Shown: positions 18,643 to 48,460 of the stretch, in pieces | How the letters are laid out: each line of letters starts with the position of its first letter | Position numbering within the stretch: position 1 is the stretch's first letter | Assembly (NCBI GenBank): GCA_017533505.1 | Contig: JAFXIB010000089.1 | Span: 2,009 to 66,008 of the forward strand | DNA: 64,000 bases | Direction: 5' to 3' | Origin: Clostridia bacterium | Lineage (GTDB): Bacteria; Bacillota; Clostridia; Christensenellales; DTU072 | Notes under the pieces: model-generated | Told to the model about the DNA's origin: nothing | Seen by the model: the letters and a program-made list of their open reading frames with translations, nothing else | Databases searched by the model: none | Made by a program: the position numbers and the translations under genes

Positions 18643-18690
18643 TTCATCCTCCAATTTTAATTGTAGCAATAAGCCCACAATATTTATTAT

Positions 18691-21803: not shown

Positions 21804-23275
21804 TACTCTTCGTCCTTTCTTTCCAATTGTTCAATGATAATCTTGTCTGGAGCAACAGATAGACCTACTCTATCGCCCTTTAGCCAGTCGTCATCGGTAT
21901 CAACAAAGAAGTTGTAATAGTTGTCAGCACGAATGATGCATTGATAGTAACTGCCCTTATAAATGCTGGATACTACTTCACCACCGATGATGCCGTCTTC
22001 TTCGTCATCGTGTACTATAACATCGTCAAAGTCAATGGATACTTTGACAGGTGTGCCTGATGGTAGGTTAGAGTTACATGGGAACTTGCCACCACAAATT
22101 TCAACAACGCCTTCGTCCCACATTTCTGTTTCGATTTCGTTGATGATGCGTGCTTTGTGCATGATATGGAGATCAAATGGCTTGATAAAGATACCTATTT
22201 CGTCCCCTACCTTAACTTCGGTGTTATCGTGGATAAGGAGCTCGTTGACCTCTTCCTTGCCCTCAATAAGTGCTACGATTTGATAGTGGTCGCCCTTGAA
22301 CACACAGCTATCAACCTTACCAGTCATCATTGCTGCTTGGTTGTCTGCTGGCATAACGAATATATCTTCGGGACGAATGATAACATCAATAGGCTCATTC
22401 TTTTTGAATCCTTTGTCTACACACTCAAATTCTCTATCAAAGAACTCTACAACACAGTCCTTGCGCATAATACCACTAAAGATGTTTGACTCGCCGATAA
22501 AGTCTGCAACGAATGCATGTGCTGGCTCATCATATATCTTTTGTGGGTTGGCAATTTGTTGGATAACACCATCACGCATAACAACAATGGTATCGCTCAT
22601 TGTAAGAGCTTCTTCTTGGTCGTGGGTAACATAAACAAAGGTGATACCTATCTTCTTATGCATATTCATAAGTTCGATTTGCATATCCTTTCTCATCTTC
22701 AAGTCTAACGCGCCAAGAGGCTCGTCAAGGAGCAAAACTTCTGGCTCATTAACAAGTGCGCGAGCAATGGCTACACGCTGTTGTTGACCGCCTGAAAGGC
22801 TGTTAACATTACGATGACCATAGTCTTCAAGGTCAACAAGCTTGAGGGCGTTGTTTACCTTGTCCTTTATCTCTTGCTTTGTGAGCTTTCTGAGCTTTTC
22901 ATAAAGGTTGCCCTTTCTATCCTTGAAGGTTTCGCCTGTTGGGACCTTTTTGATTTTCAAACCAAAAGCAATATTGTTGAATACATTTAGGTGAGGGAAC
23001 AAAGCATACTTTTGGAATACTGTGTTAACTGGACGAAGATGTGGTGGAATTTCCGTTATGTTCTTGCCATTGAAGTACACAGCACCACTGGTGGGCTTTT
23101 CAAAACCAGCAATCATTCTGAGAGTTGTAGACTTGCCACAACCTGATGGTCCCAAGAATGTTACAAATTCGCCACGCTTAACAGAAAAACTGACATTCTT
23201 TACAGCAGGCTTGCCATCGTAATCTTTGTGAACATTTTTAAGTTCGATAATTACATCTTTAGTTTGATTTGTCAT
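21803..23275 (-). CDS. potA: Spermidine/putrescine ABC transporter ATPase, extended (insertion in the ABC domain plus two TOBE-like C-terminal modules)
   Basis: Walker A GPSGCGKST, signature LSGGQQQR, Walker B LLLDEP, H-loop VTHDQ. About 25 extra aa (VPTGETFKDRKGNLYEKLRKLTKQ) lie between the Q-loop and the signature. Two consecutive beta-rich C-terminal modules bring it to 490 aa. Confidence 0.9.
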   Translation of the reverse strand: MTNQTKDVIIELKNVHKDYDGKPAVKNVSFSVKRGEFVTFLGPSGCGKSTTLRMIAGFEKPTSGAVYFNGKNITEIPPHLRPVNTVFQKYALFPHLNVFNNIAFGLKIKKVPTGETFKDRKGNLYEKLRKLTKQEIKDKVNNALKLVDLEDYGHRNVNSLSGGQQQRVAIARALVNEPEVLLLDEPLGALDLKMRKDMQIELMNMHKKIGITFVYVTHDQEEALTMSDTIVVMRDGVIQQIANPQKIYDEPAHAFVADFIGESNIFSGIMRKDCVVEFFDREFECVDKGFKKNEPIDVIIRPEDIFVMPADNQAAMMTGKVDSCVFKGDHYQIVALIEGKEEVNELLIHDNTEVKVGDEIGIFIKPFDLHIMHKARIINEIETEMWDEGVVEICGGKFPCNSNLPSGTPVKVSIDFDDVIVHDDEEDGIIGGEVVSSIYKGSYYQCIIRADNYYNFFVDTDDDWLKGDRVGLSVAPDKIIIEQLERKDEE

Positions 23276-24048: not shown

Positions 24049-27000
24049 TTATGCCGAGTACATGGAAACTGTAATATAACGGAGATAGCCGGTATAGTTT
24101 GCAGTTTCCTTCCATAGTGTTGAAATGCTACCACCATATACTTCACAGTCTGGTGAATATACAGCGCCGGCTTCTTTACCAGATTTGATAGTTCCACTTA
24201 CATTCCAGTCAGGACAGATACCACTTGCAGTTCCTGATACAGAATAGAAGTAAACGCTTGCTGAACCACTCAAGTAACCTGTACCTTCAAATCCCCAAGT
24301 GAAACCTGCTTCAATTGAAGCTTGGTTGTAGATTGTACCACCACCACAATACTCTGCTGTTGCTGTTACACTACATGTAGAGTTGCCTCCATTGCCATTA
24401 CCTTTTGCATTACCGATATATGCCCATTGTGTTTGTGATACATCTTCTGCTTGGTCAACCCAAATGTAGTTGAAGTACTTGATGATTGCACTACCACTTG
24501 CACTGATATTTTCATTAGTACTGCTACCTGTGATTGCACCAATATAGGTATCATTTCTACTTTCATCACTTGCTCTTCTGTTTACCATGAGCTTGGAGTT
24601 GTTAGCCACACCACTTACTGCACCTTCGTTGTAGCCAACTATACCACCGATATATAGGGTTGCAGTATCCGCACTCAAGACAGCATGCATACCAGAGTTA
24701 GCGCCACTTGTAGGTACATAAGCTTCATTTGCAGCAGTAACTACTTCGTATGCAGCAGTTGTTGAATTATAATCGTTTGTTGCTCCTTGTGAACCACTGA
24801 TGCTACCACCACTAATTTTGCCTGTGCTTGTGTTGTAGCCGACCATACCGCCATAAGTACCACCTTCAAGTGAAGCATTGATGTTTTGACGAGATGTGAA
24901 TATTCTTGCTGCAACGGAGCCGTTTTCCAAAGTTCCGAAGTTGACACCTACTAGACCACCTACCATTGAGCCAGTTATGCTCAATCTGAAGGTGCTTGAT
25001 GATGATACGGTTGCGCCTGAAATTGTACCATTGTTGAAGCCTGCAATACCACCAGCACCATGCATCATAAAGTTACCTTGGTCAGCAGTTGAATTTGGTG
25101 CTACGAAACCTGCTGTACTATTAGAACGGATGCCCATTGCAGAAGTGATTCTGTAAACGACATTGTTAATTCTTCTATTTGCGCCAATTGAACCAACCAC
25201 ACCACCAATTGCAGCCTTGTTGCTTGATGCGTCAAGACCACCATTAATTACGGTTGCATTTTCAATTGCAACTTGCTCGGTGCTACCGCTATTTGCTTGG
25301 ATGGTACCTGCGATACCACCAGCGCCAATACCTTCTGCGCCAAGAGCAGTACCACTCATTACAGTAACACCACTTGTGGTATATGTGCCATTGCCACCTG
25401 ATACTCTACCATAGTTACCGATTGATCCAACGATACCACCAGCGCCACCAGTGTAGTCAGAGCCTACACCAAGATAGCTACCACCGATGGTTGCAGTAAC
25501 ATTATAGTCTGTTACAGATGAGTTAGTAATCAAGCCTTCTGCATCGGTTTCACCAGCAAGCAAGCCAACTAAGCCACCTACAAAGTTTTGACCATATGCA
25601 GTCCTAATGATGTTTTCAGCACCAGTTGCTACGGTGTGAACATTTTGTACAGTACCACCAAATACTTGACCTGCAAGTACACCAACATTGGTTGCGCTTG
25701 TATATACATAAGATCTACCAATGTTCAAGTTCTTTACAACACCACCACGATAAATCTTTGCAAAGATACCAACATTTTCCATAATGGATGAGTTGGATAG
25801 CTCGAGATATAGGTTGTATAGAGTCTTGCTATTACCATCATAAACACCGTTGAATCCATTTAGATAAGTTACATTGTTGGATGCTGTGAATGCTCCACAA
25901 AGTGGCTCTTCTAAAGCGTTGTTAGTTTCGTTAAGGTTGATGTCAGCTATTTGGATGAAGTGTACTCTTAATACTTCGCTACCATTTTGACCATATACCA
26001 AAGTACCATTGTTGCCCTTGTATAGGCTGTCAATATTTCTCAAATGATCTACGGTTGCAATCTTGAATGGGTTGGTTGCAGAGCCATCACCAGCACTACC
26101 AACCACTCCACCATCAGCAAATGGGTAGTCATACATACCAGTGCCACTCTTTGACTGAGTCTGCAATGTACCTTCTACCCAAACATACTCGTCCCAAGTT
26201 GCTGTGGAGTAGTAGGCAATGTTTTGTACCTTCTTGGTAATTGATGAGCCGTTGAAGTTTACACCAATACTGATATAATCACTTTCGAGTACATTAGCTG
26301 TATCGATAAGTCTTGTTGCATAATCGCCACTTTCTTCACCATCAAAGCTGAATTCTGTGTTGATTGGTATGTTGTTGATTTGGATGATGCCATCGCCACT
26401 ATTGTCACCACTTGTTGCATGTGCGTCGCCAATAGCATCGTCCTTTACATAGTAAGCATCATTACCAAGAATGTCAGCTGATACTTCTACGCTGTTAGGA
26501 TCGTTTTCGTAAAGCACCTCGCCCAATGCGTTAGGTAGCTTGATTGATGAGCCAACATAAACATTGTGGAGCTTCAAAGTACCGAAAGACTCAAAGTTTA
26601 CATTGATGGTCTTTTGTGCATTTGCAGTAATTACAATTTCCATTGCTTCAACTGCATCATTGTATGCTTCGTATGTGGAGCTGTTGTTAGCATCAAAGTT
26701 CTTGAGAGCATCTGGAATGGTGGATTGTTGATAGTCAAGTGAACCATTTTGATCCCAGACATTCCTGTTTTCTTCATCAACAGAAGTGATGCCAGCAAAC
26801 CTATCATACAATGGGTTAAAGTTGGTAGAATCGTTGATGTTGCCCGAATAGTTGGTTACAAGCTTAAACATTAGCTTTGTGCCTACGCGTGCGTCAGTAA
26901 TGTTAATCATTCTTTCGCCACTGAGTTCACCTTGCTCAACCCAAGTGTCACCTACTTGCTTGTAGTACTTGAGCGTGGGCATTGAGTCGGTTAAAACTGG

Positions 27001-29322
27001 GCTTATACCAGAAAGGTTTGTTACCTTTACACTAATAGTGTAAATACGGATATACCTTGCAAAGATCTTGAATGAATCATTCATCAACAAATTGATTTGG
27101 TTGTTGTTGGGGTTGAAGCTATATGTAATCTTTGTATCGGTATCATTACCATTTAGGTCTTGAACTGTTTCTGTCTTGAAGTAATAGGTTGTTTCGCCCT
27201 TTGTTACAGATAGGTTGTTGTCTAACTCGGTTGCGTTTGCAACAAGAGCTTGCTTACCACCTTGACCATTTTCGGTGATATACCAACCTGCGAACTCATA
27301 ACCTTCAATAGTTGCTGGGAGCAAGGTTTGAACGGTATAGTAGTTGAAGTTACCACTTGAACGAGAAATGCTACCAATCTTTGGTTCTACATCGCCCTTT
27401 CCGTCAAGGAAGATATGCTCATCGTTGAGAGCTGTGGACTTAACAAGCTCAAGACTTTCTACCTTTTGGAACAAAGGTCTAATTCTTATAGCATAGATAT
27501 CAAATGAGCTTTCATATTCGCCCAAGCTATCATACTTGGATGCACTATAAGTGAATCCATCAGCATTGTCCTCTGGTACAACACCAGTTGAACCAATGTA
27601 TGCAGGATATGTTGTTGTGAACAAGCATGATACTGGGAATGTGAAGCTTGGCTTGGTTACAAGGTTGGTTTGTGAGTTTGCATCAACATATGGAATATTG
27701 AGCCAACCGAAGTTGCCATCACCAAGGTATGCATAGTATTGCCATGCAATGAATGCAAAGTTGTCATCGCCACCACTTGCACCTGCCCAGTTGAGGCTGA
27801 TGGTGTTATCTCTCCAAGTGTTGTATGGTGAGTTAGCAGAGTTCTTGTCAATATTATTTATAGTATTAATCTTACCAAGCATTTGGAAGTTAATATCGGT
27901 ATTATAGGAAACATCTGCGCCAAGTTTGGGTTCCACACTCATTGAAGAATTGAAATATTGAGTGATGTTTTCATCATACATAGTTGATGTTACGGTAATG
28001 GGTCCTGGGTTGAGATAATCGCCATTATCCAAGTACTCGTTTTCAACTACAATGTTGTATACAGGGATAAACCTTGCAACAACTTCGATGGTATAAGTTG
28101 TTGTTGAAACACCACTCGATACAGTAGTATTTTCAACGATGTTTACACCATTAGATAGGTTGTCAAGGTCGTTGATTACAAAGCTACCTTCATATGTAGA
28201 TGGGTAGTTTTGGATGAGTTGCGTATAGGAATTTATGCCATTGATAAAGTATCCTACAAATTGATAGTATCTTGAGAAGCTCTTGAACTCTGCTTCACTC
28301 AAACTGAAACCGATGTTGTAGTACAAGTTATCATTGTAGTCATACTTCTTGTTAGAAACGGTTGAGTCAGCACTGGAGTTAGATGTAAAGTTGATGTTGT
28401 AACCAGGTGTTGGGTCGTCAATAGATGTTCTTTCGTCAGTTACGAAGCTAATCTTTCTGGTTACTTCAACTTGCTTCCAGAATCTAATCTTGAAGATTGA
28501 GTTTTCGTTCAAGCCATTTAGAGTTACAACAACCCTGCTGATTCTATCGTTGCTGATGTTGGTTGAAGCATTGCCAGTCTCATTGTAATAAGTGATTTGT
28601 ACTCTGCCGTCAGCAGTTGCAACCAATGGGGTATAGGTTGAACTGAATTGCTTGAAGCCTTGCTCATCAGGTGTAGCAAGTGGGAGAAGTTCCATAACAC
28701 TATCAAACCTATAACTTGACTTTGGTGTTATGGTAATTGTCAAGGTTTGGTTAGGTGCCATTGTTACGGAGTTTTCGGTTAGACTTGCAACAGATGTTCC
28801 GTTGATAGCATATCTTACGGTACCACCTTCACCACTTACATTTGAGCCAACGGTTTCCATTGCAAAGCTTGCGTAGATTACATTGTTAAAGTAAGCATAT
28901 ACTAATCTATCTTCCAAGGTATCTACGCCTGTAGAATAGCTATCTTCCATTTGTGCAATCTTGCCACCATTATAAGTGATAACTGAATAGCTATATCCCC
29001 TTGTTGAGTTTACAGAGATACTATCGTTACCAGTAAGCATCAAGTTTGCACCACTCAATACTCTATATGTATAGCTTGCATCCTCTACTCCGTCTATATC
29101 AGTTATTACCTCTCTCATAGCTGAAACATTGGGTAGGATTACACCTTCGCCCTTCGTTGAGTAAGTAACAGTAGCTGTTAGACTTGCATATTGACGATAC
29201 TTCATTCTTGATGGATCATTTGTTGCAAATGAACCTTCAGTGTACTTGTATTCTGGGTGAACTTGAACGGTAATCTCGTAAGTGCGGAAGAATACTGCTC
29301 TAAACTCACGATTTGAAGTCAT
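24049..29322 (-). CDS. Giant surface protein, distal 1,757 codons (B-type repeats then GLUG-motif region); in frame with 29386..36624 across a single TAA
   Basis: Y.F.GW-type repeats (YEFAGWYITENGQG, FVGYFINGINSY). Then NPFKIATVDHLRNIDSLY followed by many GLUG turns (FVGGLVGLLAG, GAGGIVGSIG, GAGGIAGTIQ, IGGVVGSIG, GAGGIAGFNNGTISG, VGGLVGVNFGTLENG, YGGMVGYN, IGGIVGYNEGAVSG). There is no RBS before the called ATG at 29322. Confidence 0.8.
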   Translation of the reverse strand: MTSNREFRAVFFRTYEITVQVHPEYKYTEGSFATNDPSRMKYRQYASLTATVTYSTKGEGVILPNVSAMREVITDIDGVEDASYTYRVLSGANLMLTGNDSISVNSTRGYSYSVITYNGGKIAQMEDSYSTGVDTLEDRLVYAYFNNVIYASFAMETVGSNVSGEGGTVRYAINGTSVASLTENSVTMAPNQTLTITITPKSSYRFDSVMELLPLATPDEQGFKQFSSTYTPLVATADGRVQITYYNETGNASTNISNDRISRVVVTLNGLNENSIFKIRFWKQVEVTRKISFVTDERTSIDDPTPGYNINFTSNSSADSTVSNKKYDYNDNLYYNIGFSLSEAEFKSFSRYYQFVGYFINGINSYTQLIQNYPSTYEGSFVINDLDNLSNGVNIVENTTVSSGVSTTTYTIEVVARFIPVYNIVVENEYLDNGDYLNPGPITVTSTMYDENITQYFNSSMSVEPKLGADVSYNTDINFQMLGKINTINNIDKNSANSPYNTWRDNTISLNWAGASGGDDNFAFIAWQYYAYLGDGNFGWLNIPYVDANSQTNLVTKPSFTFPVSCLFTTTYPAYIGSTGVVPEDNADGFTYSASKYDSLGEYESSFDIYAIRIRPLFQKVESLELVKSTALNDEHIFLDGKGDVEPKIGSISRSSGNFNYYTVQTLLPATIEGYEFAGWYITENGQGGKQALVANATELDNNLSVTKGETTYYFKTETVQDLNGNDTDTKITYSFNPNNNQINLLMNDSFKIFARYIRIYTISVKVTNLSGISPVLTDSMPTLKYYKQVGDTWVEQGELSGERMINITDARVGTKLMFKLVTNYSGNINDSTNFNPLYDRFAGITSVDEENRNVWDQNGSLDYQQSTIPDALKNFDANNSSTYEAYNDAVEAMEIVITANAQKTINVNFESFGTLKLHNVYVGSSIKLPNALGEVLYENDPNSVEVSADILGNDAYYVKDDAIGDAHATSGDNSGDGIIQINNIPINTEFSFDGEESGDYATRLIDTANVLESDYISIGVNFNGSSITKKVQNIAYYSTATWDEYVWVEGTLQTQSKSGTGMYDYPFADGGVVGSAGDGSATNPFKIATVDHLRNIDSLYKGNNGTLVYGQNGSEVLRVHFIQIADINLNETNNALEEPLCGAFTASNNVTYLNGFNGVYDGNSKTLYNLYLELSNSSIMENVGIFAKIYRGGVVKNLNIGRSYVYTSATNVGVLAGQVFGGTVQNVHTVATGAENIIRTAYGQNFVGGLVGLLAGETDAEGLITNSSVTDYNVTATIGGSYLGVGSDYTGGAGGIVGSIGNYGRVSGGNGTYTTSGVTVMSGTALGAEGIGAGGIAGTIQANSGSTEQVAIENATVINGGLDASSNKAAIGGVVGSIGANRRINNVVYRITSAMGIRSNSTAGFVAPNSTADQGNFMMHGAGGIAGFNNGTISGATVSSSSTFRLSITGSMVGGLVGVNFGTLENGSVAARIFTSRQNINASLEGGTYGGMVGYNTSTGKISGGSISGSQGATNDYNSTTAAYEVVTAANEAYVPTSGANSGMHAVLSADTATLYIGGIVGYNEGAVSGVANNSKLMVNRRASDESRNDTYIGAITGSSTNENISASGSAIIKYFNYIWVDQAEDVSQTQWAYIGNAKGNGNGGNSTCSVTATAEYCGGGTIYNQASIEAGFTWGFEGTGYLSGSASVYFYSVSGTASGICPDWNVSGTIKSGKEAGAVYSPDCEVYGGSISTLWKETANYTGYLRYITVSMYSA

Positions 29323-29385
29323 TGTATAACGGAGAATTTGTCCGTTAGATTGTAGTGTAATACCATTTACACCATCTACAACATA

Positions 29386-32300
29386 TTACCATACGCCGTC
29401 AATCTTTTCTTGATATCCTTGGAATGAATACTTGTTGATAACAGCAGAGTCAATTCTTACGGTGTAGGTTGCGTCTGTATTGTACTCGTGCTCAATGGAG
29501 CTCTTGTAGTCGCTGAATGATGCTGAAAGTGTAAATGCATCTCTGTTATTAATCTTTGGAGTATCAGTAGCTGTTACAGTCCTACCATAGTTGGATGAGC
29601 CAACACCTTCAACAAGATACATGCTTGCCTTTGACTCATGCATATCCTTTTTGGTTTCGTAGTAAATACGGATGGTATTCTTGTTGTTGGAGTGGAAGTC
29701 CATCATCTTTAGAATATCAGCATCAAGCGTTACAGCAAGGTTTTCGCCCTTTTGTGAGAATGTGTTGTGATCACGCAAGCCCTCTCTCAAGAAGCTATAT
29801 GTAGTCTTGCTGGTATCGTTATAAGGCAAGTTGTAGAAGGTGACTGATGTGATTGAGTAGCCTTCCTTCAAGTCATGATTGATGAGAGTTGGTGTAACTG
29901 CATCAAAGATGATTTCGTTATTGTTGAGTGATACACCGAGAGTTGAATCTTGATATAGGTTAGTGATTTGTAAATTATTGATGAAGAATACTACACTATA
30001 TCTTTGCTTTTCGTATGTAGGCAAGATGGTAATCTTATCAGCGCCATTTACAAGTTCGTCGTTGATAATTAGTGATACCTTTTCCTGACTTGCGTTGATG
30101 GTGTCGGTAGTATATGTATAATGCATATCTGAACGACCACTAACAGTTGTAGGAATGGTTCTACCATTGATATCAAGGCTTGCGAGATAGTAGCCATCAT
30201 CAGAAATCATATTTACGCCAAATGCTTCATGGTGGCTTACAAGGGTGTTACCAGTTGAGCCATATCTACCACCTGGGCGATGGATATATTCAATGGTATA
30301 TGTCTTGATTACATACTCAACATGAACTCTTATATTACCAGTCATGCTGGGGATTGTGTAGGTACGAGCGCCACTACCATCATCTGCATCAAGGCCACTT
30401 TCGGATAGTACAAGGTTGGATTCTACACCACCATCATTATCCATGATGATGGATACTGCCGAAATCCTATAACCAACAGGAGCTGTTAGTGAAATGGTAA
30501 CCTTATCAGCAAATACTGCAGGGCTGATGTGTACTGTCTTATTTGGATCTGATGGATCAACTACTTCAATAAATACTCTACCATCTGCATCAATGCTTCT
30601 TGGAGTATCGGTTGTAAAGTAGTTTTCTTCTTGTTTTAGAAGTGAACCCTTGTTGAGAACAACACCACTTATTGCATGTACAAGAGTGTCGCTGTTGGTA
30701 ATTTCGGGATATTCCTTATTATAATCGCCACTAAACTCGATATCGTATGCCTTGTTTGCAAGGATTACAAAGATGCTATAATCACTTGTGATGTGCTCCA
30801 AGGTGTGGGTACCACCAAACTCAAGGGTGGAAGTCATATCGCTGTTTTGTCCGTTAAGCAATACCTTATCCATCACATAACCACGACTGATTACAAGTCT
30901 TACGGTTACACTTTCATTCCACTCTACAAGTGAAGTGCTAATGGTAGCAACACCACCTTCAAAGGTGTTAACTTCGATAACATATGTATGGATAGTAAAG
31001 TTGATTTCACATAGAGTATGTGAAACGATAACTTCTCTCTCACGCATCATGGCATCTTCATTAACAATCGCATATGCTTGCTTGTTGATGAAGAAGTTGC
31101 TAATTCTGTAACCTTCATCAGCATTTGGTACTGCCACAAAGATAATCTCTGTACCGTAAGTTACCACGATACCATTTTCGCTTGCCCAAACAACACCACC
31201 TTCAACAGCGCGTTTTGCATAGGTTTTATTTTCGTCTGAAGCGATGTCGCCACTCTCAATGATTTCAATGCCAGGAGCCCATAGGAGAGTGTCTGTTGTA
31301 TCATAAATATAGTACTTACCACCAACGCTTGCGCTCATTTCTACTTCGTAAGTATCAATGGTGTAGGTTACTTCAACATCCATTGCACCAGTTAAAGTAC
31401 CAATAAAGTTGTTGTTTCTTACAGATGTAAGTCTATCTTCGCCATTTACTGTAAATGCTGTACGACTATATCCTACGCCAGGCTTTACTGAAATAGAGTA
31501 GTTGAGACCATACTCATACATGCCGTCAACAACAACGACTGGTTGTTGAGCATAAGGATTGGTAAATGTTGCAATGATGTCGCCTTCACATTCCCATGTT
31601 GAGCCTTGATCGTCAATGGTCATTGTGCCAACATAAGCAAACATTCTTCTTCTAAACTCAACATTTACTGCTTGGATGTCGCTGGAAATGCCATATAGGA
31701 TATATGATCCACCCCTATCATCCAAAGTGGTGATGTTGTTGCTAATCAATTTGCCATCATCATTGTAATATTGGATTTCGAATCTTGCGATGTAGTAACC
31801 TCTGCCAGTTCTGGGAGTTACAACAAACTTAACATTGTTACCATGAGAGAAGCCTTGATATAGTCCGTTTGCATCGCTTTGATATCCGGTGATTGATACA
31901 ACACCATAGGTGTTGCTGTCAACATCGATGGTATTGAAGTTGGGGCTTTGGTTGGATACATTAACTTGGATTTGATACTCATTGATTGCATAAACAACTC
32001 TCAAAGAGATATTGCCTGTTACAACGCCAAGGTCATAGTAGATTTCTGTTAGGTCGTTGGCAGATACATTTTCTACCTTCCAGCCATTGTCCACAACACC
32101 ATTTACGCGTAGCTCTTGGATGTGATATCCCTTTTGAGCACTCATCTTGATGGAAACATGGTCACCTTCGCCAAGTTTTACATTCTTGGCTTGGTCATAC
32201 ATGCTACCTTCCTTTCTTACCAAGGTTTGACCACCAAGAGATTCGTTGATAGTGATGGAGTATACCATTGGAGAGAATGTTACATCCAATGTAGTATCGT

Positions 32301-35300
32301 GAGAGATGTGGATTTGCAATACACCCAAAGTATATTCGCCAGTAACTATTGGGGTACCGATTAGTGTTTGAGTGGAGATTTCTTCGCCATTCAAAACAAT
32401 CTTGCTAATATAGTAGCCACCAAATGCGCTGAGCTCAACTTCCTTGGTTTCGCCATAGTGTACACTGACAACACCCGTGTCGCCTACTCCACCGATAGTA
32501 CCATTGTCGCTATATGTATATGAAAGTTCATATTGAATAGGAGCAAAGCTTGCTGTTATTGTAATTGCGCCAGTAACATAGCTTGCTGGCATGGTGTAGT
32601 CAATCTTGCCACCATTCATATATCCATCGTATTCAGAGCCATTCAAAGGTTGGATGGGCTTGCTTTGTCCATCGATACTGATGATGAATGTTGATGCATA
32701 GTAGCCTTCAACCGGAGTGAGCCTAATGTTGAATGAAGAACCAGCTTCTACCATTGATTTATCGGTTGCTACAACACCATTTTCTACACCACTTACTATG
32801 GTAATAGGATATTTTGTTTCGCTAAATACAGCATAAGCATGGCTATCTGCATTTGCGATATAGCTATACTTGTTACCATCAACTGCAACGCTCTTACCAT
32901 CAACTACCAAGGCTTCAAGAACATGACCTGCGCTTGGGATTGCTTCCAAAACAATCTTCATACCACTTGAAATAGTAGCACCGGTTGCAATGCTTTCGCC
33001 ATTGCCGTCATAAGCAGAAAGTGTACCATTACCACTTGCAGTGTAAGTAAGAGTCTTTGGACTGCTTTCGGTGGTCTTCTTATCAAATGTTACATAAATA
33101 TCAACTGATGTGTGAATATCATAGATATTCAAGTATGTTGTTGATGATGCTTGTGAGCTACCAGCAATAAGAGCATAGAAGCCATTAGTTTCAGATTGGT
33201 TATATTCGCCAGAGAGTGGCAAATAGTAGTAAGATTCTCTTTGGTCCTTGTTTACAACAACAATCTTATCAATGCTCAAAGAGTATCCACTTGCAAGAGT
33301 GATGTTTGCTGTTAGGTCGTTGCCATAAGCAATAGATGATTGATAATGTGCATTGTTGCTGGATTCAGTATTGTTGATGGTTGCGTTGTTGATTACAACC
33401 CTATTATTTGCCTTGTTGATAAAGTGGATATCATAATCAAGTGCAATTGATGCACAAATGATTTCTACTGAATAGCTTGCATCAATGTTTGCAAGGGTTA
33501 CAACATGATTCTTTGCAGAATAGTTGATGATTTCGTTGTGGCTGTCGCCCTTGTTGGATGTAACCAAAATGCTGTTGATGTAATATCCTTCATTTGCCAC
33601 TACTTCAAATTCAGCAGTTTGAGCATGTTCAACGCCGTCAAATGTATAGCCTTCGCCACCAATGATATTGACTGTCTTATCATTATAAGTTACTTGTGAT
33701 GTGCCATCATTATCAACAAAACGAACATAATAAGTTGTTCTCTTGAAGATAAACTTGATGTCGTAGTCTTGCATGGTGTTATTTACGGCATACTCACGAG
33801 CAGTTTGAACATCGTCAAATGTTAGTTCTTCGCCGTTGACCAATACAGAGTCTACATAGTATCCACTTGATGTAACTGCATTGACATGGAATGGTGCGCC
33901 ATATGATACAGTAAATGGAGTTGTTACAGAACCGATACCTTCATAAGAAGTTGTGATATTGTAGTAAAGTTCTTCAAATTCAACTTCAAAGACAACATTT
34001 TGCTCAATGCCATCAATTTGAATTTGCATTTTGGTAACTCTATAATCGTTGCCACCCTCAACTTCTTCGCCATTGACAAGTTTGCTTTGAACAGTGTATC
34101 CCTTTGCAGAGATATATGGGTCGATTATAGTACCATTTGCAGTAATTCTCTTTACATAGTATCCTTCTTCTGCTTCTGCGATGAAGGAAGGTGCGTCACC
34201 CTTGTTGAAGTTTAGAATACTTGCCTCGGAAACTACCGAACCCTTTTCACTAACTTCTGGAAGTGTTACGGCATATGTAAATTGTAGGTATTGAATTTCT
34301 ACCCTATTGTCGCTATTTACATCTTCAATGATAAGGTTGAAGTATACTGCTTCACTTGGTACAGTGATTTCTTCGCCATTGAGCTTGATTGCTGAAATAT
34401 AATATCCGTAGCTTGAGCTTGGGTCAATTGGAGTTTCCCTTTCAGCTCTGGTTGCAATTTCGATACTTGCACCTGAACCATAGTTTACAAGGAAGCTGAT
34501 AGCTTTGTCGTTGCTGTTTTGACGGAAACTTTCGTCCTTACCCAAGATATTGTAAGCAATTTCGCCACTAACAGCACCGTTTGAGCCATTGGTGATAGCA
34601 ACTTCGTACTCGGTGAGCTTGAAGGTTGCTGTTACTTCGTGGTCGGTTTCGATGATGCTGGAAATTGTCAAATCGTAGTAACCTTGCTCTCCTGCGAGAT
34701 TGGTGCCTGTGTTGGTAACGCCATTTACATTTACAGCACTCAATGAGTATCCTGCGCTTGGACGGATACGGAGCAAGTAGTCTTCAGTAACAGGCATTGC
34801 TACCTTGCCAGAAATAGCCTTTTCGGTATAAACGCCATAAACGCTATCATAAACAAGAGCATTGATAGAACCTGAACCTTGAATGTTGATTGTCAAAGTC
34901 TTGGTGTTGACTTCAAATACAGGAACAACGAAGATTGCTGGATAACTTGCTGTTACATTGCCCAAGCCATCCTTAACTTCAACGATAGTCATGTAGTTTT
35001 CAAGCTTGAATGCTTTGTCAATTACGGTTGAAGTGGGTAGTCTGTCAGCATCGGCAAGATACCAGCCCTTGAATGTATAGTTTTCCTTGGTGGGTACAAC
35101 TTCTGGGAATGTGCCACTGATTGCACCAGCAAGAGTGTCTTGATAGTAAGAAGTGACAAGCTTTCCATTATAAGTGGTTTCGAAAATAGAAGTTGAGTCG
35201 ATAAATGAAAGGTCTTCGTTTTCGCCCTTTAGGAATACAGCTGCAAAAATTTGCTTTTCCCAGTAAGCAATTAGCTCTGTGGGTTGGCTGAATGTTGTTT

Positions 35301-36624
35301 GATTGGTTACAAGTACAGGAGTGCCGTCCTCTTTGACTTCGCCACCCTTGATGTACCAGCCCTTGAAGTCATAACCAAGGGTGGAGAGATATGTAAGGTC
35401 TTCTACATCAAACTTTTCGCCAATTGGGGTGTCGTAATCAATCAAGAAGCTCTCATGAGCCTTATTGTTCATGGAAGTAAAGGAAATTTCACTCTCAAGA
35501 TATACAAAATGAGCTTTGACCAAAATTTCTTCCACCTCGGAATCTGGTGTAAAGCTCAAAACAAATTCTTCACTCGTGCCTGTGCGCGTAGAAATAAACT
35601 CAATAGAGTGATTGATGCCTACATGGATAAGACGACCATCGCTCATAACAGGGTCAAGAGATATCCAAGTTTTGGTATTTACATCATAAACGGACCAGCC
35701 AATAAACTTTCTGTCTGCATTTGCAGTAACACGCACGGTTGCAAGGTCATCAAACTCATAGAATGCGCGTGCATCGGATGTGCCAAGTGGACGACCACTC
35801 CTATCAGTGGTGTACTCGATGTTAAAGTCAGCTGCGTACTTTTCGTAGATAGGATAGATGTTGGTATCCTTTGTGATGTGGGTGTAATCGGTGTCCCAAC
35901 CTACAAAGCGATATCCATATAGTTCCATATTGTGTTCATCTGCGCGTGGTACACGCATAGGAGCTTCGTTATAAGCAACGATTTCTTCTCTTGCAGTGGT
36001 GCCATCTGGATAGTAGAATACTACTGTGTAACGAAGTTTTTCGAACACAGCGATAAGACGCATACTCTTGGAGACTTGAGTATCAAGACGGCTTGCGTTG
36101 AGATTGCCATCAGACCAACCAGCAAAATAATATCCTTCATCTGGGATAGCTTCAACACGGGTTGCATCTGCCCCTGCTGTTATGCTTTGGATGGTGTCGC
36201 CATCAATTCTACCACCGGTAGAAGCAATATACTCTACATTGAGTTCGGTTGGAACAACATTGAATGAAATGGTTTGCTTAAAGCCACCGTAATCAAGCAC
36301 AACTCCATCAACAACACCTTCAGTACTTATGTCGAGACCGGTAACAACAAGTTCAGAAAGCGCAACTTGATTAGTAGTACCATCAGAATACTTGACGGTA
36401 ACAAACACCTGTGACAAATCGGCGCCAACAGAAATCAAGCCTTCGTCGGGCGCAACAATAGCCACCACTTCTGGTGCTTCGTAATCAGTTACATCTGCGT
36501 AATTAGGCAGGACAATACCCGCAGTGACAATAGCTGCTACTGCAACAATTGCAATGGCAATCATAGTGATGCCGAACATTCCATTGATGGAAAAACGCTT
36601 TCCAGTTACTCTTAATTTAGCCAT
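29386..36624 (-). CDS. Giant N-anchored surface protein, proximal 2,412 codons (more than 20 Listeria-Bacteroides/InlB-B-like repeat modules)
   Basis: N-terminal signal-anchor MFGITMIAIAIVAVAAIVTAGIVL and RBS ggaga. Repeats include YYFAGWSDGN, YRFVGWDTDY, YDFKGWYIKGG, YTFKGWYLADA. Many 90-100-aa modules carry (E/S)GYY(I/V)xS(I/V)xVNGE-type strands. There is no LPXTG and no choline-binding or SLH motif. Confidence 0.85.
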   Translation of the reverse strand: MAKLRVTGKRFSINGMFGITMIAIAIVAVAAIVTAGIVLPNYADVTDYEAPEVVAIVAPDEGLISVGADLSQVFVTVKYSDGTTNQVALSELVVTGLDISTEGVVDGVVLDYGGFKQTISFNVVPTELNVEYIASTGGRIDGDTIQSITAGADATRVEAIPDEGYYFAGWSDGNLNASRLDTQVSKSMRLIAVFEKLRYTVVFYYPDGTTAREEIVAYNEAPMRVPRADEHNMELYGYRFVGWDTDYTHITKDTNIYPIYEKYAADFNIEYTTDRSGRPLGTSDARAFYEFDDLATVRVTANADRKFIGWSVYDVNTKTWISLDPVMSDGRLIHVGINHSIEFISTRTGTSEEFVLSFTPDSEVEEILVKAHFVYLESEISFTSMNNKAHESFLIDYDTPIGEKFDVEDLTYLSTLGYDFKGWYIKGGEVKEDGTPVLVTNQTTFSQPTELIAYWEKQIFAAVFLKGENEDLSFIDSTSIFETTYNGKLVTSYYQDTLAGAISGTFPEVVPTKENYTFKGWYLADADRLPTSTVIDKAFKLENYMTIVEVKDGLGNVTASYPAIFVVPVFEVNTKTLTINIQGSGSINALVYDSVYGVYTEKAISGKVAMPVTEDYLLRIRPSAGYSLSAVNVNGVTNTGTNLAGEQGYYDLTISSIIETDHEVTATFKLTEYEVAITNGSNGAVSGEIAYNILGKDESFRQNSNDKAISFLVNYGSGASIEIATRAERETPIDPSSSYGYYISAIKLNGEEITVPSEAVYFNLIIEDVNSDNRVEIQYLQFTYAVTLPEVSEKGSVVSEASILNFNKGDAPSFIAEAEEGYYVKRITANGTIIDPYISAKGYTVQSKLVNGEEVEGGNDYRVTKMQIQIDGIEQNVVFEVEFEELYYNITTSYEGIGSVTTPFTVSYGAPFHVNAVTSSGYYVDSVLVNGEELTFDDVQTAREYAVNNTMQDYDIKFIFKRTTYYVRFVDNDGTSQVTYNDKTVNIIGGEGYTFDGVEHAQTAEFEVVANEGYYINSILVTSNKGDSHNEIINYSAKNHVVTLANIDASYSVEIICASIALDYDIHFINKANNRVVINNATINNTESSNNAHYQSSIAYGNDLTANITLASGYSLSIDKIVVVNKDQRESYYYLPLSGEYNQSETNGFYALIAGSSQASSTTYLNIYDIHTSVDIYVTFDKKTTESSPKTLTYTASGNGTLSAYDGNGESIATGATISSGMKIVLEAIPSAGHVLEALVVDGKSVAVDGNKYSYIANADSHAYAVFSETKYPITIVSGVENGVVATDKSMVEAGSSFNIRLTPVEGYYASTFIISIDGQSKPIQPLNGSEYDGYMNGGKIDYTMPASYVTGAITITASFAPIQYELSYTYSDNGTIGGVGDTGVVSVHYGETKEVELSAFGGYYISKIVLNGEEISTQTLIGTPIVTGEYTLGVLQIHISHDTTLDVTFSPMVYSITINESLGGQTLVRKEGSMYDQAKNVKLGEGDHVSIKMSAQKGYHIQELRVNGVVDNGWKVENVSANDLTEIYYDLGVVTGNISLRVVYAINEYQIQVNVSNQSPNFNTIDVDSNTYGVVSITGYQSDANGLYQGFSHGNNVKFVVTPRTGRGYYIARFEIQYYNDDGKLISNNITTLDDRGGSYILYGISSDIQAVNVEFRRRMFAYVGTMTIDDQGSTWECEGDIIATFTNPYAQQPVVVVDGMYEYGLNYSISVKPGVGYSRTAFTVNGEDRLTSVRNNNFIGTLTGAMDVEVTYTIDTYEVEMSASVGGKYYIYDTTDTLLWAPGIEIIESGDIASDENKTYAKRAVEGGVVWASENGIVVTYGTEIIFVAVPNADEGYRISNFFINKQAYAIVNEDAMMREREVIVSHTLCEINFTIHTYVIEVNTFEGGVATISTSLVEWNESVTVRLVISRGYVMDKVLLNGQNSDMTSTLEFGGTHTLEHITSDYSIFVILANKAYDIEFSGDYNKEYPEITNSDTLVHAISGVVLNKGSLLKQEENYFTTDTPRSIDADGRVFIEVVDPSDPNKTVHISPAVFADKVTISLTAPVGYRISAVSIIMDNDGGVESNLVLSESGLDADDGSGARTYTIPSMTGNIRVHVEYVIKTYTIEYIHRPGGRYGSTGNTLVSHHEAFGVNMISDDGYYLASLDINGRTIPTTVSGRSDMHYTYTTDTINASQEKVSLIINDELVNGADKITILPTYEKQRYSVVFFINNLQITNLYQDSTLGVSLNNNEIIFDAVTPTLINHDLKEGYSITSVTFYNLPYNDTSKTTYSFLREGLRDHNTFSQKGENLAVTLDADILKMMDFHSNNKNTIRIYYETKKDMHESKASMYLVEGVGSSNYGRTVTATDTPKINNRDAFTLSASFSDYKSSIEHEYNTDATYTVRIDSAVINKYSFQGYQEKIDGVW

Positions 36625-36761: not shown

Positions 36762-38747
36762 CTACTTTTGGCGCTTATCTACCGTCTTTTGAGTGGGGCG
36801 CGCAATGCTGAATTTGCCACTTGGGATATCTTCGGTTATTGTTGAGCCACCAGCAATATAACAGTCATTCCCTATCTTCAATGGTGCAATAAGATTGGAG
36901 TTGCAACCGATAAACACTCTTTCTCCCACTTCTGTTCTTCGCTTTAATTTTCCGTTATAATTTGCAAACACCGTGCCACATCCTACATTTGTATGCGCGC
37001 CCACATCTGCATCGCCCACATATGTAAGATGCGCTGCTTTTACCCCGTCCCCAATCACCGAATTTTTGACTTCTACATAGTCGCCTATCCTACACCCCTT
37101 GCCAATATTTGCGCCCTTGCGTAGTGTTGCAAAAGGTCCTATTGTGGAGTGTGCTCCTATGTTTGCATTAAGACAATAGCTTGAACGAATGTCTACACCA
37201 TCGCCAATTGTAGTATCGGTTATATCGCAAAATGAATAGATGTTGGCATTTTCCCCTATAATCGTCTTGCCAGCAATATAATTGAATGGATAAATTATAC
37301 TGCCTTTTCCAATTTCCACCCCTTTTGCAATAAAAGTAGTACTTGGCTCTACAATCGTTACGCCATTAGTGGTGTAGTTTTGATAATCTTCTTTTGCATT
37401 TATTGGATTTTGGGATACTTTATTATTGGTTTTAGTATTCTTTAATTCCATATTTTGGACTATTTCTGTGCTTATAAATTCTTTAATTTTGATAGCACTT
37501 TCCTTGGCTTTTTCATAGGTTTCCCCCTCCACCATAATGCGTATTTTAGGCTCGGTGCCAGATGGTCTTGCGACGACTCTAACGGCGTTTTCTTTTTCAT
37601 ACAACTCAAGAAACTCTTTGATTTTTGTGGAACCTTGGAGTAGCTCTTTTTGTTCAACACTTGCAGTAATATCACTTTCCACACAAGGGTATTTGACCAT
37701 ATCAAGCAACCTATTTATGCCAACTTCTCTGTCTATCAAGGCAACAAACAAAGCTGTAAGCAGTCCATCTCCTGTTTGTGAATAGTGCCTTAAAATGATA
37801 TGTCCACTATCCTCGCCACCAATCTCCGAACCACTTTCAAGCATTTTTTGATATACATATTTGTCGCCAACATCTGCCCTAACAAATGATATCCCCCTAT
37901 CTTCCAACGACTTTTCCAGCCCCATATTGCTCATGAGCGTACCAACAACGCATCTTGTTGCCAATCTTCCCTTCAGCTCAAAGTATCGTGTAATTAGATA
38001 CAAAATATCATCTCCAGTCAGCATTTTGCCATCTTTGATGGCAATTACTCTGTCCCCGTCACCATCAAAAGCAAAACCAAGGGAGCAGTTTTCTTTTAAG
38101 CAATACTCTTGTAAAGGTGTTAGATATGTTGCGCCACATTTTACATTAATGCACTCTCCATTGTCGTCTGCATTTATATCCTTTAACCTTATACCCAGCC
38201 TTTCAAACACTTTGGACACAATGCTAAAAGTTGCTCCGTGACAAAGGTCTGTAGCCAACTCCATACCAATCAAGCTATTTCCAAAAATACCTTCAAGATA
38301 TGTAATATAGTTTTCCACTTCTCCATTATAAACAATTCCTTGCGCCCCAAAATTTGGCTTAAAATCTTGGTTTAGTGCACTCTCAATCTCTTTCTCCAAC
38401 TGCGTAGAAATCTTGGCTCCTTGCCCCGAAAACAGCTTCAAACCATTGTATTCTGGTGGGTTATGACTTGCTGAAATCATTATGCCCAATTGACAACCAC
38501 TGCTTTTTGTTAAAAAAGCAAGTGTAGGAGTCGGCATCACACCACCCCTAAAAACGCTAATTCCATTTGACAGCAAATGGGCAGTAAGCATATTTTCTAT
38601 TTCGCCACCACTAACTCTTGTGTCTCTACCTATATAAACACTAATTTTGCCAAAAACCTTGCAAATTGCTTTGGAAAACCTACAAATAAAGGGCTCATCA
38701 AACAATGTGCCCTTTGCTCTTATACCATCTGTGCCAAATTTAAGCAT
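36762..38747 (-). CDS. Fusion protein: phosphoglucosamine-mutase-like phosphohexomutase (N) + GlmU-type left-handed beta-helix acetyltransferase domain (C)
   Basis: N-terminal part: FGTDGIRA, phosphoserine loop SASHNPPEYNGLK, metal loop FAFDGDGDR, sugar loop GGEDSGH, phosphate loop RPSGTEPKIR. After a linker of about 40 aa: IGPFATLRKGANIG, GDYVEVKNSVIGDGVKAAHLTYVGDADVG, NVGCGTVFANYNGKLKRRTEVG, VFIGCNSNLIAPLKIG, AGGSTIT. This is collinear with the E. coli GlmU C-terminal domain as I recall it. No nucleotidyltransferase domain is present. Confidence 0.85.
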   Translation of the reverse strand: MLKFGTDGIRAKGTLFDEPFICRFSKAICKVFGKISVYIGRDTRVSGGEIENMLTAHLLSNGISVFRGGVMPTPTLAFLTKSSGCQLGIMISASHNPPEYNGLKLFSGQGAKISTQLEKEIESALNQDFKPNFGAQGIVYNGEVENYITYLEGIFGNSLIGMELATDLCHGATFSIVSKVFERLGIRLKDINADDNGECINVKCGATYLTPLQEYCLKENCSLGFAFDGDGDRVIAIKDGKMLTGDDILYLITRYFELKGRLATRCVVGTLMSNMGLEKSLEDRGISFVRADVGDKYVYQKMLESGSEIGGEDSGHIILRHYSQTGDGLLTALFVALIDREVGINRLLDMVKYPCVESDITASVEQKELLQGSTKIKEFLELYEKENAVRVVARPSGTEPKIRIMVEGETYEKAKESAIKIKEFISTEIVQNMELKNTKTNNKVSQNPINAKEDYQNYTTNGVTIVEPSTTFIAKGVEIGKGSIIYPFNYIAGKTIIGENANIYSFCDITDTTIGDGVDIRSSYCLNANIGAHSTIGPFATLRKGANIGKGCRIGDYVEVKNSVIGDGVKAAHLTYVGDADVGAHTNVGCGTVFANYNGKLKRRTEVGERVFIGCNSNLIAPLKIGNDCYIAGGSTITEDIPSGKFSIARPTQKTVDKRQK

Positions 38748-43083: not shown

Positions 43084-43112
43084 ATAGTACCCAATATGTA
43101 AGCGTTATTTCA

Positions 43113-48301: not shown

Positions 48302-48460
48302 ATTACTCCTTCGTATGTACGCGCACGCGCGCACTTATTATATAATATACATTTGTATATTAACATACTTATTATATATAGTCAAGAACAAAATTTGATT
48401 TGAATGGAAATTTAGCCTAAAATTACCAAAAATCATCTCCATATCTCTATCAAACAACTG

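What the first reader, a model, noticed from the sequence alone, without database searches (positions are those of the whole stretch)
29323..29388. Single in-frame TAA splits one ~4,190-codon adhesin reading frame into 2,412- and 1,757-codon ORFs
The stop of the upstream ORF (TAA, 29386-29388 on the minus strand) and the called ATG of the downstream ORF (29320-29322) are in the same frame. They are separated by 21 sense codons (YVVDGVNGITLQSNGQILRYT). Read through, the sequence ...YSFQGYQEKIDGVW*YVVDGVNGITLQSNGQILRYTMTSNREFRAVF... completes one more Y.F.G(W/Y)...A.F repeat unit. The downstream ATG has no Shine-Dalgarno sequence, and the downstream ORF has no signal or anchor of its own. The GLUG 'head' would therefore be expressed only by suppression or readthrough of the stop, or by reversion to a sense codon. 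Possibilities are a recent nonsense mutation (pseudogene or truncated stalk-only protein), a population polymorphism acting as an on/off switch, a base-call error, or low-level programmed readthrough.
Basis: seen in the sequence. Interest (0 to 1): 0.6.

Follow-up and report, generated by a model that had tools for sequence, protein, structure and literature searches.

The report
One-off stop codon in giant gene
A single C-to-T change, found only in this assembly, puts a stop codon in the middle of a 4,191-codon surface-protein gene that is unbroken in every related sequence found, so it is an ordinary recent nonsense mutation or an assembly error, not a programmed signal.

Summary
A minus-strand TAA at 29388-29386 splits one reading frame (36624..24049) into 2,412 codons, the stop, 21 sense codons, and a 1,757-codon ATG ORF.

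The stop is not conserved. Four independent metagenome assemblies of the same species (99.6-99.96% identical in DNA) all carry CAA (Gln) at this codon, and one of them has the gene called as a single 4,191-aa product. Orthologues at 81% and 33% identity also have CAA, in single ORFs of 4,207 and 4,384 aa. The window therefore differs by one C->T transition that no other sequence shares.

The distal half shows no decay. dN/dS is 0.07 against 0.06 upstream, the relative-rate test is balanced, and there are no window-only changes downstream of the stop.

Nothing points to recoding. TAA is the genome's main stop, and the TAA-T context matches most ordinary gene ends here. There is no RNA structure, hypermutable repeat, SD sequence or export signal for the distal ORF.

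The same window carries 10 other window-only changes in 27 kb. Most are non-synonymous, one is a frameshift in a GH38 gene, and four are T->G. I therefore cannot separate a real young nonsense allele (about 0.5) from assembly noise (about 0.42). Either way the finding is ordinary.

The parts
24049..36624 (-). The whole giant surface-protein gene: 4,191 sense-equivalent codons plus the terminal TAA, interrupted once in this window.
   Evidence: One frame with a single internal stop. A conspecific contig has the same gene called as one 4,191-aa product. Orthologues are single ORFs of 4,207 aa (L001) and 4,384 aa (L002).
29386..29388 (-). Premature TAA at codon 2413. It differs from CAA (Gln) by one C->T change on the gene strand, which is + strand A at 29388 where all others have G.
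   Evidence: CAA is present in L006/L016, L007, L008, L009, L001 and L002. P0001 has Thr at this position.
29389..36624 (-). The proximal 2,412 codons. This is the only part that would be made if the stop is real: an N-terminal membrane anchor plus a repeat-rich stalk.
   Evidence: ORF list. Pfam Flg_new_2 (E 2e-14) and Flg_new (E 2e-10). NCBIfam List_Bact_rpt.
36490..36594 (-). The predicted N-terminal signal-anchor, residues ~11-45. It is the only hydrophobic segment in the protein.
   Evidence: Kyte-Doolittle scan, and the N-terminus is conserved in L001.
24049..29385 (-). The distal 1,778 codons plus the terminal stop. They are left untranslated if the TAA is real, yet are fully intact and still look constrained.
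   Evidence: dN/dS against L001 is 0.074, compared with 0.059 upstream. The relative-rate test gives 55 vs 52. No window-only change lies downstream of the stop.
29320..29322 (-). The internal Met codon that an ORF finder takes as the start of the 1,757-aa ORF. It is not a genuine start.
   Evidence: No SD-like sequence upstream. No promoter-like site on the minus strand. The Met is an internal residue in the homologues (RYTMTS in L001, RYSMSS in P0001).
24052..26700 (-).
   Evidence: Pfam Glug PF07581 is only sub-threshold (E 0.016, 16 bits, 4 stretches). The AlphaFold model is poor (pLDDT 40.8).

Best explanation
This is one gene for a giant (4,191-aa) surface protein. It has an N-terminal membrane anchor and InlB-B-repeat-type domains, and it belongs to an uncultured ruminant-gut Clostridia bacterium.

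In the lineage or sample behind this window, codon 2413 (CAA, Gln) has become TAA through a single C->T transition. It is a plain, very young nonsense allele, either fixed or segregating in the sampled population. It is not a recoding signal or a switch.

Inferred consequences:
- Ribosomes terminate at UAA-U and release a 2,412-aa product: membrane anchor plus stalk.
- The distal 1,778 residues, including the Gly-rich GLUG-like C-terminal region, are not made.
- The 1,757-codon 'ORF' is the silent remainder of the gene. It has no ribosome-binding site and no export signal.

Shown by the data: one gene, a stop found only in this assembly, CAA as the ancestral codon, and no decay of the distal part. 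Inferred: the truncated product and the loss of whatever the distal region does.
For: Conspecific sequences:
- Contigs from four independent assemblies all read CAA at the codon. They are ERZ28653880 scaffold_899, ERZ27256853, ERZ28653940 and ERZ28654013, at 99.6-99.96% DNA identity.
- scaffold_899 carries the gene as one 4,191-aa call, in the same gene neighbourhood as the window.

More distant homologues:
- The 81%-identical orthologue L001 and the 33%-identical L002 also read CAA inside single giant ORFs.
- The partial homologue P0001 reads straight through, with Thr at this position.
- The stop lies in a strongly conserved stretch: YSFQG[YF]QE[KE]IDG.W[Q/T]Y.

State of the distal half:
- It is as constrained as the proximal half. 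dN is 0.129 vs 0.121 and dN/dS is 0.074 vs 0.059.
- The window lineage is not accelerated: 55 vs 52 lineage-specific changes downstream and 79 vs 76 upstream.

No sign of recoding or independent expression:
- The window uses the standard code, with TAA as the main stop (29 TAA, 10 TAG, 3 TGA). T follows 17 of the other 28 TAA stops.
- No suppressor tRNA or Rfam element.
- No structure after the stop.
- No promoter or terminator.
- No SD sequence or hydrophobic segment for the distal ORF.

C->T is the commonest spontaneous transition (established knowledge).

Premature stops and frameshifts in large surface-protein genes are well documented:
- ebhA/ebhB in S. aureus Mu50 and N315, PMC3868527.
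- inlA premature stop codons, e.g. PMC12427964 and PMC5131979.
Against: No reads are available, so the allele cannot be verified.

The window carries 10 substitutions and 1 indel in 26.9 kb that no other assembly shares. Its nearest relative, scaffold_899, carries none.

These window-only changes look unfiltered by selection:
- In the window vs scaffold_899 comparison, differences that no third assembly shares are 10 non-synonymous, 2 nonsense and 5 synonymous. One of the two nonsense changes is scaffold_899's own. Shared polymorphisms are 19 non-synonymous and 70 synonymous.
- At 8 of the 9 amino-acid-changing codons checked, the L001 orthologue agrees with the conspecifics rather than the window. 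One is an Asn in a 98.4%-conserved ABC ATPase.
- They include a frameshift in a GH38 gene.
- Four of the ten are T->G, a class typical of Illumina miscalls and rare among real mutations (my own knowledge).

Two other low-coverage assemblies of the same clone carry their own frameshifts found nowhere else. This looks like assembly noise.

None of the window's own haplotype proteins is on record elsewhere.
Confidence: 0.5

Rival explanations
1. Assembly or consensus noise. The organism actually has CAA at this codon. The A at + strand 29388 would come from read errors, DNA damage, or an assembler following an error or rare-variant k-mer path. In that case the gene is intact and there is no biology to explain.
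For: - The allele is unique to this window among five assemblies of the species.
- The window has 11 changes in 26.9 kb that no other assembly shares, against 0 in scaffold_899.
- The single-assembly differences are about 70% non-synonymous or disruptive, against 21% for shared polymorphisms.
- They hit positions conserved in the orthologue.
- Four are T->G, three of them clustered within 9 bp at 37369-37377.
- A second gene-breaking lesion, a 2-nt-to-1-nt change at 18454-5, frameshifts a GH38 gene that is intact in scaffold_899 (L006) and L007 and has the same undeleted sequence in L008.
- Similar lesions unique to one assembly occur in other assemblies of the same clone: a L009 frameshift, a L011 1-nt deletion in the conserved ABC ATPase gene, and a scaffold_899 TAT->TAA.
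- A rate of ~3.7e-4 per bp is within the mismatch rates commonly reported for metagenome assemblers (my own knowledge).
Against: - G->A / C->T is not the signature Illumina error. It is the commonest real mutation.
- The contig is at least 64 kb long, which argues against very low coverage.
- Very young real mutations also show near-neutral N:S ratios, so the spectrum does not discriminate between the two explanations.
Confidence: 0.42
2. Programmed or leaky stop-codon readthrough. The TAA would be a maintained feature that yields mostly a stalk-only protein plus a minor full-length isoform carrying the head.
For: - The distal 1,778 codons are perfectly intact and in frame.
- The frame is the same on both sides of the stop.
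- A two-isoform surface protein would be a tidy design. This point is inference only.
Against: - The stop is absent from all four conspecifics and from all orthologues, which read CAA or Thr.
- UAA is the most efficient bacterial stop and is never the Sec or Pyl codon. UAA-U is the strongest termination context known in E. coli (established knowledge) and is the commonest normal gene-end context in this window.
- No stimulatory structure (z -0.93).
- No suppressor tRNA or Rfam element in the window.
- The intactness of the distal part is fully explained by how young the change is. There are no window-only mutations downstream.
Confidence: 0.02
3. A population-level on/off polymorphism, meaning a contingency or phase-variable allele, or recurrent selected loss of the distal head (for example to escape phage or host recognition).
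For: - Both alleles exist in the species' sampled diversity: TAA here and CAA elsewhere.
- A second, independent truncating lesion lies in the distal half of the same gene in L009, a frameshift creating TAA at codon 3118.
- Surface proteins are frequent targets of such selection (established knowledge).
Against: - There is no hypermutable sequence at the codon. The only repeat is a weak 9-nt x 2.6 in-frame repeat beside it, and there are no meaningful inverted repeats. Switching would run at the ordinary point-mutation rate.
- The gene makes up about 35% of the compared DNA, so 2 of 5 disruptive lesions falling in it is what chance predicts.
- The L009 lesion sits in a gapped, low-coverage scaffold and may itself be an error.
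Confidence: 0.04

Closest known systems
Staphylococcus aureus ebh split into ebhA/ebhB in strains Mu50 and N315
   Same: A giant surface-protein gene that is one ORF in most strains is annotated as two adjacent same-strand ORFs in some, because of a single small lesion (PMC3868527). Here too, conspecifics carry one intact 4,191-aa ORF.
   Different: The ebh lesion is a frameshift seen in sequenced isolates. Here it is an in-frame CAA->TAA nonsense change seen in one metagenome-derived assembly and not verified in reads. The two proteins are unrelated in sequence.
Listeria monocytogenes inlA premature-stop-codon (PMSC) alleles
   Same: Naturally occurring single-nucleotide nonsense alleles truncate a surface protein of a Firmicute. 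Intact alleles are found in other strains (PMC12427964, PMC5131979). The window's protein shares the InlB B-repeat / Listeria-Bacteroides repeat domain type.
   Different: InlA is anchored at its C-terminus (LPXTG), so truncation releases it from the cell. This protein is anchored at its N-terminus, so truncation would keep the stalk on the cell and lose the distal end. The inlA alleles are recurrent and linked to phenotype. Here there is a single unverified occurrence.
Programmed recoding of stop codons in bacteria (selenocysteine UGA/SECIS, pyrrolysine UAG, leaky readthrough)
   Same: An in-frame stop inside a long, intact reading frame.
   Different: The defining features are missing: the stop is not conserved, it is UAA, there is no element or structure, and the termination context is strong.

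Membership tests
Programmed stop-codon readthrough / recoding | The in-frame stop is conserved at the same codon in orthologues and conspecific strains | tested here: not met
   CAA (Gln) in four conspecific assemblies and in L001 and L002. Thr in P0001.
Programmed stop-codon readthrough / recoding | A recodable stop type (UGA with SECIS, UAG with PYLIS) or a leaky context with a stimulatory downstream RNA structure | tested here: not met
   The stop is UAA followed by U, the commonest normal gene-end context in this window (17 of 28). No Rfam match. The fold of the 111 nt around the stop is no better than shuffles (z -0.93).
Programmed stop-codon readthrough / recoding | A suppressor tRNA or a genome-wide reassignment of the codon | tested here: inconclusive
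   TAA ends 29 of 42 ORFs, so it is not reassigned. Only tRNA-Arg(ACG) and tRNA-Thr(GGT) lie in the window. The rest of the genome was not seen.
Phase-variable (contingency) locus | A hypermutable element at the switching site, such as a simple-sequence repeat, homopolymer or invertible segment | tested here: not met
   Only a weak 9-nt x 2.6 repeat at 29362-29384 lies beside the codon, not including it, and its period keeps the frame. Only chance-level inverted repeats.
Premature-stop allele of a surface-protein gene (ebh / inlA-PMSC type) | An intact allele of the same gene exists in the same species, and the lesion is a single small mutation | tested here: met
   scaffold_899 has a 4,191-aa call and differs from the window gene at 5 of 12,576 nt. 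One of those is CAA vs TAA.
Premature-stop allele of a surface-protein gene (ebh / inlA-PMSC type) | The allele is real in the organism, confirmed by reads, re-sequencing or a truncated protein | not testable with these tools
   No reads or proteomics are available. The window's own haplotype is not on record elsewhere.
InlB B-repeat / Listeria-Bacteroides repeat surface proteins (Pfam PF18998, PF09479) | A match above Pfam's gathering score | tested here: met
   Flg_new_2 scores 53.6 bits (cut-off 23.6). Flg_new scores 41.2 bits (cut-off 27) in the proximal half. TIGR02543 scores 26.3 bits (cut-off 20.95).
GLUG-motif proteins (Pfam PF07581) | A match above Pfam's gathering score in the distal 'head' | tested here: not met
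   16.0 bits against a 20.5-bit cut-off, E 0.016, in four weak stretches. One distant homologue, P0007, carries PF07581.

The most novel reading that the evidence does not exclude
The TAA is real, and the distal 'head' of this giant surface protein is repeatedly lost in gut populations. There would be two independent truncating lesions in the distal half: codon 2413 here and codon 3118 in L009. Each falls a few residues after a Y.F.G[WY] motif. On this reading, selection from phage or the host keeps head-less variants segregating alongside the intact allele.
Probability: 0.05. Interest if true: 0.4.

Novelty: already known. Interest (0 to 1): 0.1.

Why it matters
It matters little as biology. 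Either a young loss-of-function allele has clipped the distal 42% of a giant surface protein in one strain, or the assembly has a wrong base.

The practical value is for annotation:
- The two ORFs (2,412 and 1,757 aa) should be treated as one gene, either disrupted or mis-assembled.
- They should not be annotated as two proteins or as a recoding event.
- The window's assembly carries an unusual load of unshared, unselected changes, which should temper any other single-base finding in it.

The protein family itself is very rare in public data. Searches of 5.8 billion proteins returned 2-5 hits. It is uncharacterised, but that is a separate matter from the stop codon.

Tried and rejected
- **Exact look-ups.** Both ORF products and two neighbouring window proteins were looked up. 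None is on record, so the window's own haplotype could not be found in an independent assembly.
- **JGI metagenome scans.** Two scans were run. The first found nothing. The second found only a near-copy of L002 (also W-Q-Y at the site) and two unrelated short matches.
- **Protein searches.** Searches across the junction and with the C-terminal 913 aa gave only 2 and 5 hits. That was too few for a good profile.
- **Structure prediction.** AlphaFold on the C-terminal 913 aa with 5 sequences gave pLDDT 40.8. I did not run a fold search on it, and the 'head' fold stays unknown.
- **Pfam on the repeat unit spanning the stop.** No hit. The 'one more repeat unit' claim rests on the motif and on the collinear alignment of homologues.
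- **Genetic-code reassignment of TAA.** Rejected, because TAA is the main stop.
- **Selenocysteine or pyrrolysine.** Rejected, because the codon is wrong and there is no element.
- **Re-initiation at the internal ATG as a route to a functional distal protein.** Rejected. There is no SD sequence and no promoter, and the product would have no export signal.
- **A deaminase-type mutational signature among the window-only G:C->A:T changes.** No shared sequence context on reading the flanks.
- **Lesion enrichment in the giant gene.** Not above chance, given that the gene is about 35% of the compared DNA.

Full report
**1. The observation**

On the minus strand the window reads ...GAC GGC GTA TGG TAA TAT GTT GTA GAT GGT.... 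The TAA is at 29388-29386. Twenty-one sense codons follow (YVVDGVNGITLQSNGQILRYT), then the ATG at 29322-29320 in the same frame.

The ORF finder lists 29386..36624 (2,412 aa) and 24049..29322 (1,757 aa). Translating 36624..24049 in one frame gives 4,192 codons with a single internal stop. The description is accurate. An open frame of 1,778 codons after the stop cannot be chance in 40%-GC DNA (composition).

**2. Setting**

The window is ordinary bacterial chromosome. Its GC content is 39.8%, and its stops are TAA 29, TAG 10 and TGA 3, so it uses the standard code with TAA as the main stop.

Neighbouring genes are as follows:
- Upstream: a phosphoglucomutase/hexapeptide-transferase fusion, a nucleoside phosphorylase, and two Big_2/beta-helix proteins.
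- Downstream: an HTH-cupin regulator and a PotABCD-like ABC transporter.

The closest named relatives are uncultured Clostridia MAGs from ruminant gut and from digesters.

The protein has one hydrophobic segment, at residues ~10-45, which is conserved in the orthologue. It has no LPXTG motif and no other membrane segment. Pfam finds Flg_new_2 and Flg_new (InlB B-repeat / Listeria-Bacteroides repeat) in the proximal half. It finds only sub-threshold Flg_new_2, Flg_new and Glug matches in the distal half.

I infer an N-terminally anchored, outward-projecting giant surface protein. 'Adhesin' is plausible but untested.

**3. It is one gene, and the stop is found only in this window**

- A partial homologue, P0001 (43% identity), aligns collinearly across the junction with Thr at the stop position. 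The flanks there are highly conserved.
- A scan of species-representative genomes found two loci.
  - L001 (Clostridia bacterium RGIG4281, roe deer colon) has a single 4,207-aa ORF, 81% identical, with the same neighbouring genes.
  - L002 has a single 4,384-aa ORF, 33% identical.
  - Both have CAA (Gln) at the codon.
- Looking up two neighbouring window proteins by exact sequence found contigs of the same species in independent metagenome assemblies.
  - scaffold_899 of ERZ28653880 is 99.95% identical to window 13286-49498. It carries the gene as one 4,191-aa call.
  - It differs from the window gene at 5 of 12,576 nt, one of which is CAA vs TAA.
- Three further assemblies also read CAA. They are ERZ27256853, ERZ28653940 and ERZ28654013.

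The window's TAA is therefore a single C->T transition, + strand G->A at 29388, that nothing else shares.

**4. The distal half is not decaying**

Against L001, dN is 0.121 upstream and 0.129 downstream. dN/dS is 0.059 and 0.074; dS is saturated, so these ratios are approximate.

With L002 as outgroup, the window lineage has 79 specific changes against 76 for L001 upstream, and 55 against 52 downstream. No window-only change lies downstream of the stop. The change is therefore either extremely young or not real.

**5. No sign of a programmed mechanism**

- UAA is not a Sec or Pyl codon.
- The following base is U, as at 17 of the other 28 TAA gene ends in the window. UAA-U is the strongest termination context known in E. 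coli (established knowledge).
- The window holds no suppressor tRNA and no Rfam element.
- The RNA around the stop folds no better than shuffled sequence (z -0.93).
- There is no promoter-like site on the gene strand and no terminator.
- There is no SD-like sequence before the internal ATG.
- That Met is simply an internal residue in the homologues.
- The codon is not in a simple-sequence repeat.

Readthrough, re-initiation and phase variation all lack their defining features.

**6. Real mutation or assembly noise?**

I could not settle this question.

Where at least two other assemblies cover a site, the window has 10 substitutions and 1 indel in 26.9 kb that no other assembly shares. scaffold_899 has none.

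In the window vs scaffold_899 comparison, the differences that no third assembly shares are 10 non-synonymous, 2 nonsense and 5 synonymous. One of the two nonsense changes is scaffold_899's own. Polymorphisms shared among assemblies are 19 non-synonymous and 70 synonymous.

At 8 of the 9 amino-acid-changing codons checked, the L001 orthologue agrees with the conspecifics rather than with the window. One of these is an Asn in a 98.4%-conserved ABC ATPase.

Four of the ten substitutions are T->G, three of them within 9 bp at 37369-37377. T->G is rare among real mutations and common among Illumina miscalls (my own knowledge).

The window also has a second gene-breaking lesion. At 18454-5 two bases are replaced by one, which frameshifts a GH38 alpha-mannosidase gene. 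That gene is an intact 982-aa ORF in scaffold_899 (L006) and L007, and L008 has the same undeleted sequence at the site.

Other assemblies of the same clone have their own unshared lesions:
- L009 has a frameshift in the giant gene.
- L011 has a 1-nt deletion in the ABC ATPase gene.
- scaffold_899 has TAT->TAA in another ABC ATPase gene.

This pattern fits unfiltered noise. It also fits very young mutations, which are likewise unfiltered. C->T is the classic real mutation, and a contig of at least 64 kb is unlikely to have very low coverage.

My estimates are:

| Explanation | Probability |
|---|---|
| Real nonsense allele, fixed or segregating | ~0.5 |
| Artefact | ~0.42 |
| Everything else | under 0.1 |

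**7. Consequence if real (inferred)**

Translation would end at codon 2413 and give a 2,412-aa anchored stalk. The distal 1,778 residues, including the Gly-rich C-terminal region, would not be made.

**8. Comparison with known cases**

The closest precedents are:
- the split of S. aureus ebh into ebhA/ebhB in Mu50 and N315 (PMC3868527);
- inlA premature-stop alleles in Listeria (PMC12427964, PMC5131979).

This case meets the sequence-level criteria for that class: an intact conspecific allele exists, and the lesion is a single small one. Whether the allele is real cannot be tested here. The case fails every tested criterion for programmed recoding and for phase variation.

**9. Verdict**

| Item | Judgement |
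|---|---|
| Observation | Confirmed |
| Novelty | Already known |
| Interest | Low |

Read mapping at 29388 would settle real versus artefact.

Noticed in passing
window 18454-18455 (gene 15695-18643, minus strand): A second disrupted gene. A GH38 alpha-mannosidase is an intact 982-aa ORF in conspecific contigs L006 and L007, and L008 has the same undeleted sequence at the site. In the window it carries a 2-nt-to-1-nt change (gene strand TGG T -> TA T) that frameshifts it at codon ~63. What remains is an 892-aa ORF starting at a TTG.
   Followed up: partly
L009:6547-6549 (equivalent to window 27272-27273); also L009:1874-1956: In another assembly of the same clone, the giant gene carries its own lesion. 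GA->T at codon 3118 creates an immediate TAA and a frameshift, just after a YEFAGW motif. The scaffold also has an N-gap. This could be an independent truncation or an assembly error.
   Followed up: partly
window 48014 (gene 47531-48334, minus strand); L016:1198-1968: The 267-aa ABC ATPase gene is intact in the window. In scaffold_899 it is split into 95- and 118-aa calls by a TAT->TAA change.
   Followed up: partly
window 37347-37377 (661-aa PGM/hexapeptide gene): A cluster of four window-only changes within 31 bp. Three are T->G within 9 bp, and two change residues that are conserved in the orthologue. It looks like base-call or assembly noise, or a tiny recombination patch.
   Followed up: partly
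window 22192 and 22519 (490-aa PotA-like ABC ATPase, 21803-23275): The window has His-253 where the conspecifics covering the site and the orthologue all have Asn, in the motif IYDEPANAFVADF. The protein is 98.4% conserved overall. Separately, contig L011 has a 1-nt deletion in the same gene.
   Followed up: partly
window 24049-36624; P0001-P0007: The giant protein family is extremely rare. Searches of 5.8 billion proteins with 801-aa and 913-aa pieces returned only 2 and 5 hits, all from uncultured Clostridia or unnamed metagenome proteins. The distal 1,778 aa has no Pfam domain above threshold.
   Followed up: partly
P0002 (498 aa, ENA contig of 7,128 bp): This is a short protein with a lipoprotein-like N-terminus. 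It continues into a segment 59% identical to the middle of the giant protein (TYTITVNTFEGGVATISTS...) and ends in an odd hydrophobic tail. It may reflect domain shuffling or a chimeric or broken contig.
   Followed up: no
window 40507-45785 (minus strand): Two more large predicted surface proteins (858 and 890 aa) lie just upstream in the same orientation. They have a Big_2 domain plus beta-helix or hyaluronate-lyase-like pieces. The region may be a surface-protein cluster.
   Followed up: no
window 36762-38747 (minus strand): A 661-aa fusion of a complete phosphoglucomutase/phosphomannomutase (four domains) with a C-terminal hexapeptide-repeat (LbH) transferase domain. It lies immediately upstream of the giant gene and is only 67% identical to its L001 orthologue.
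   Followed up: no
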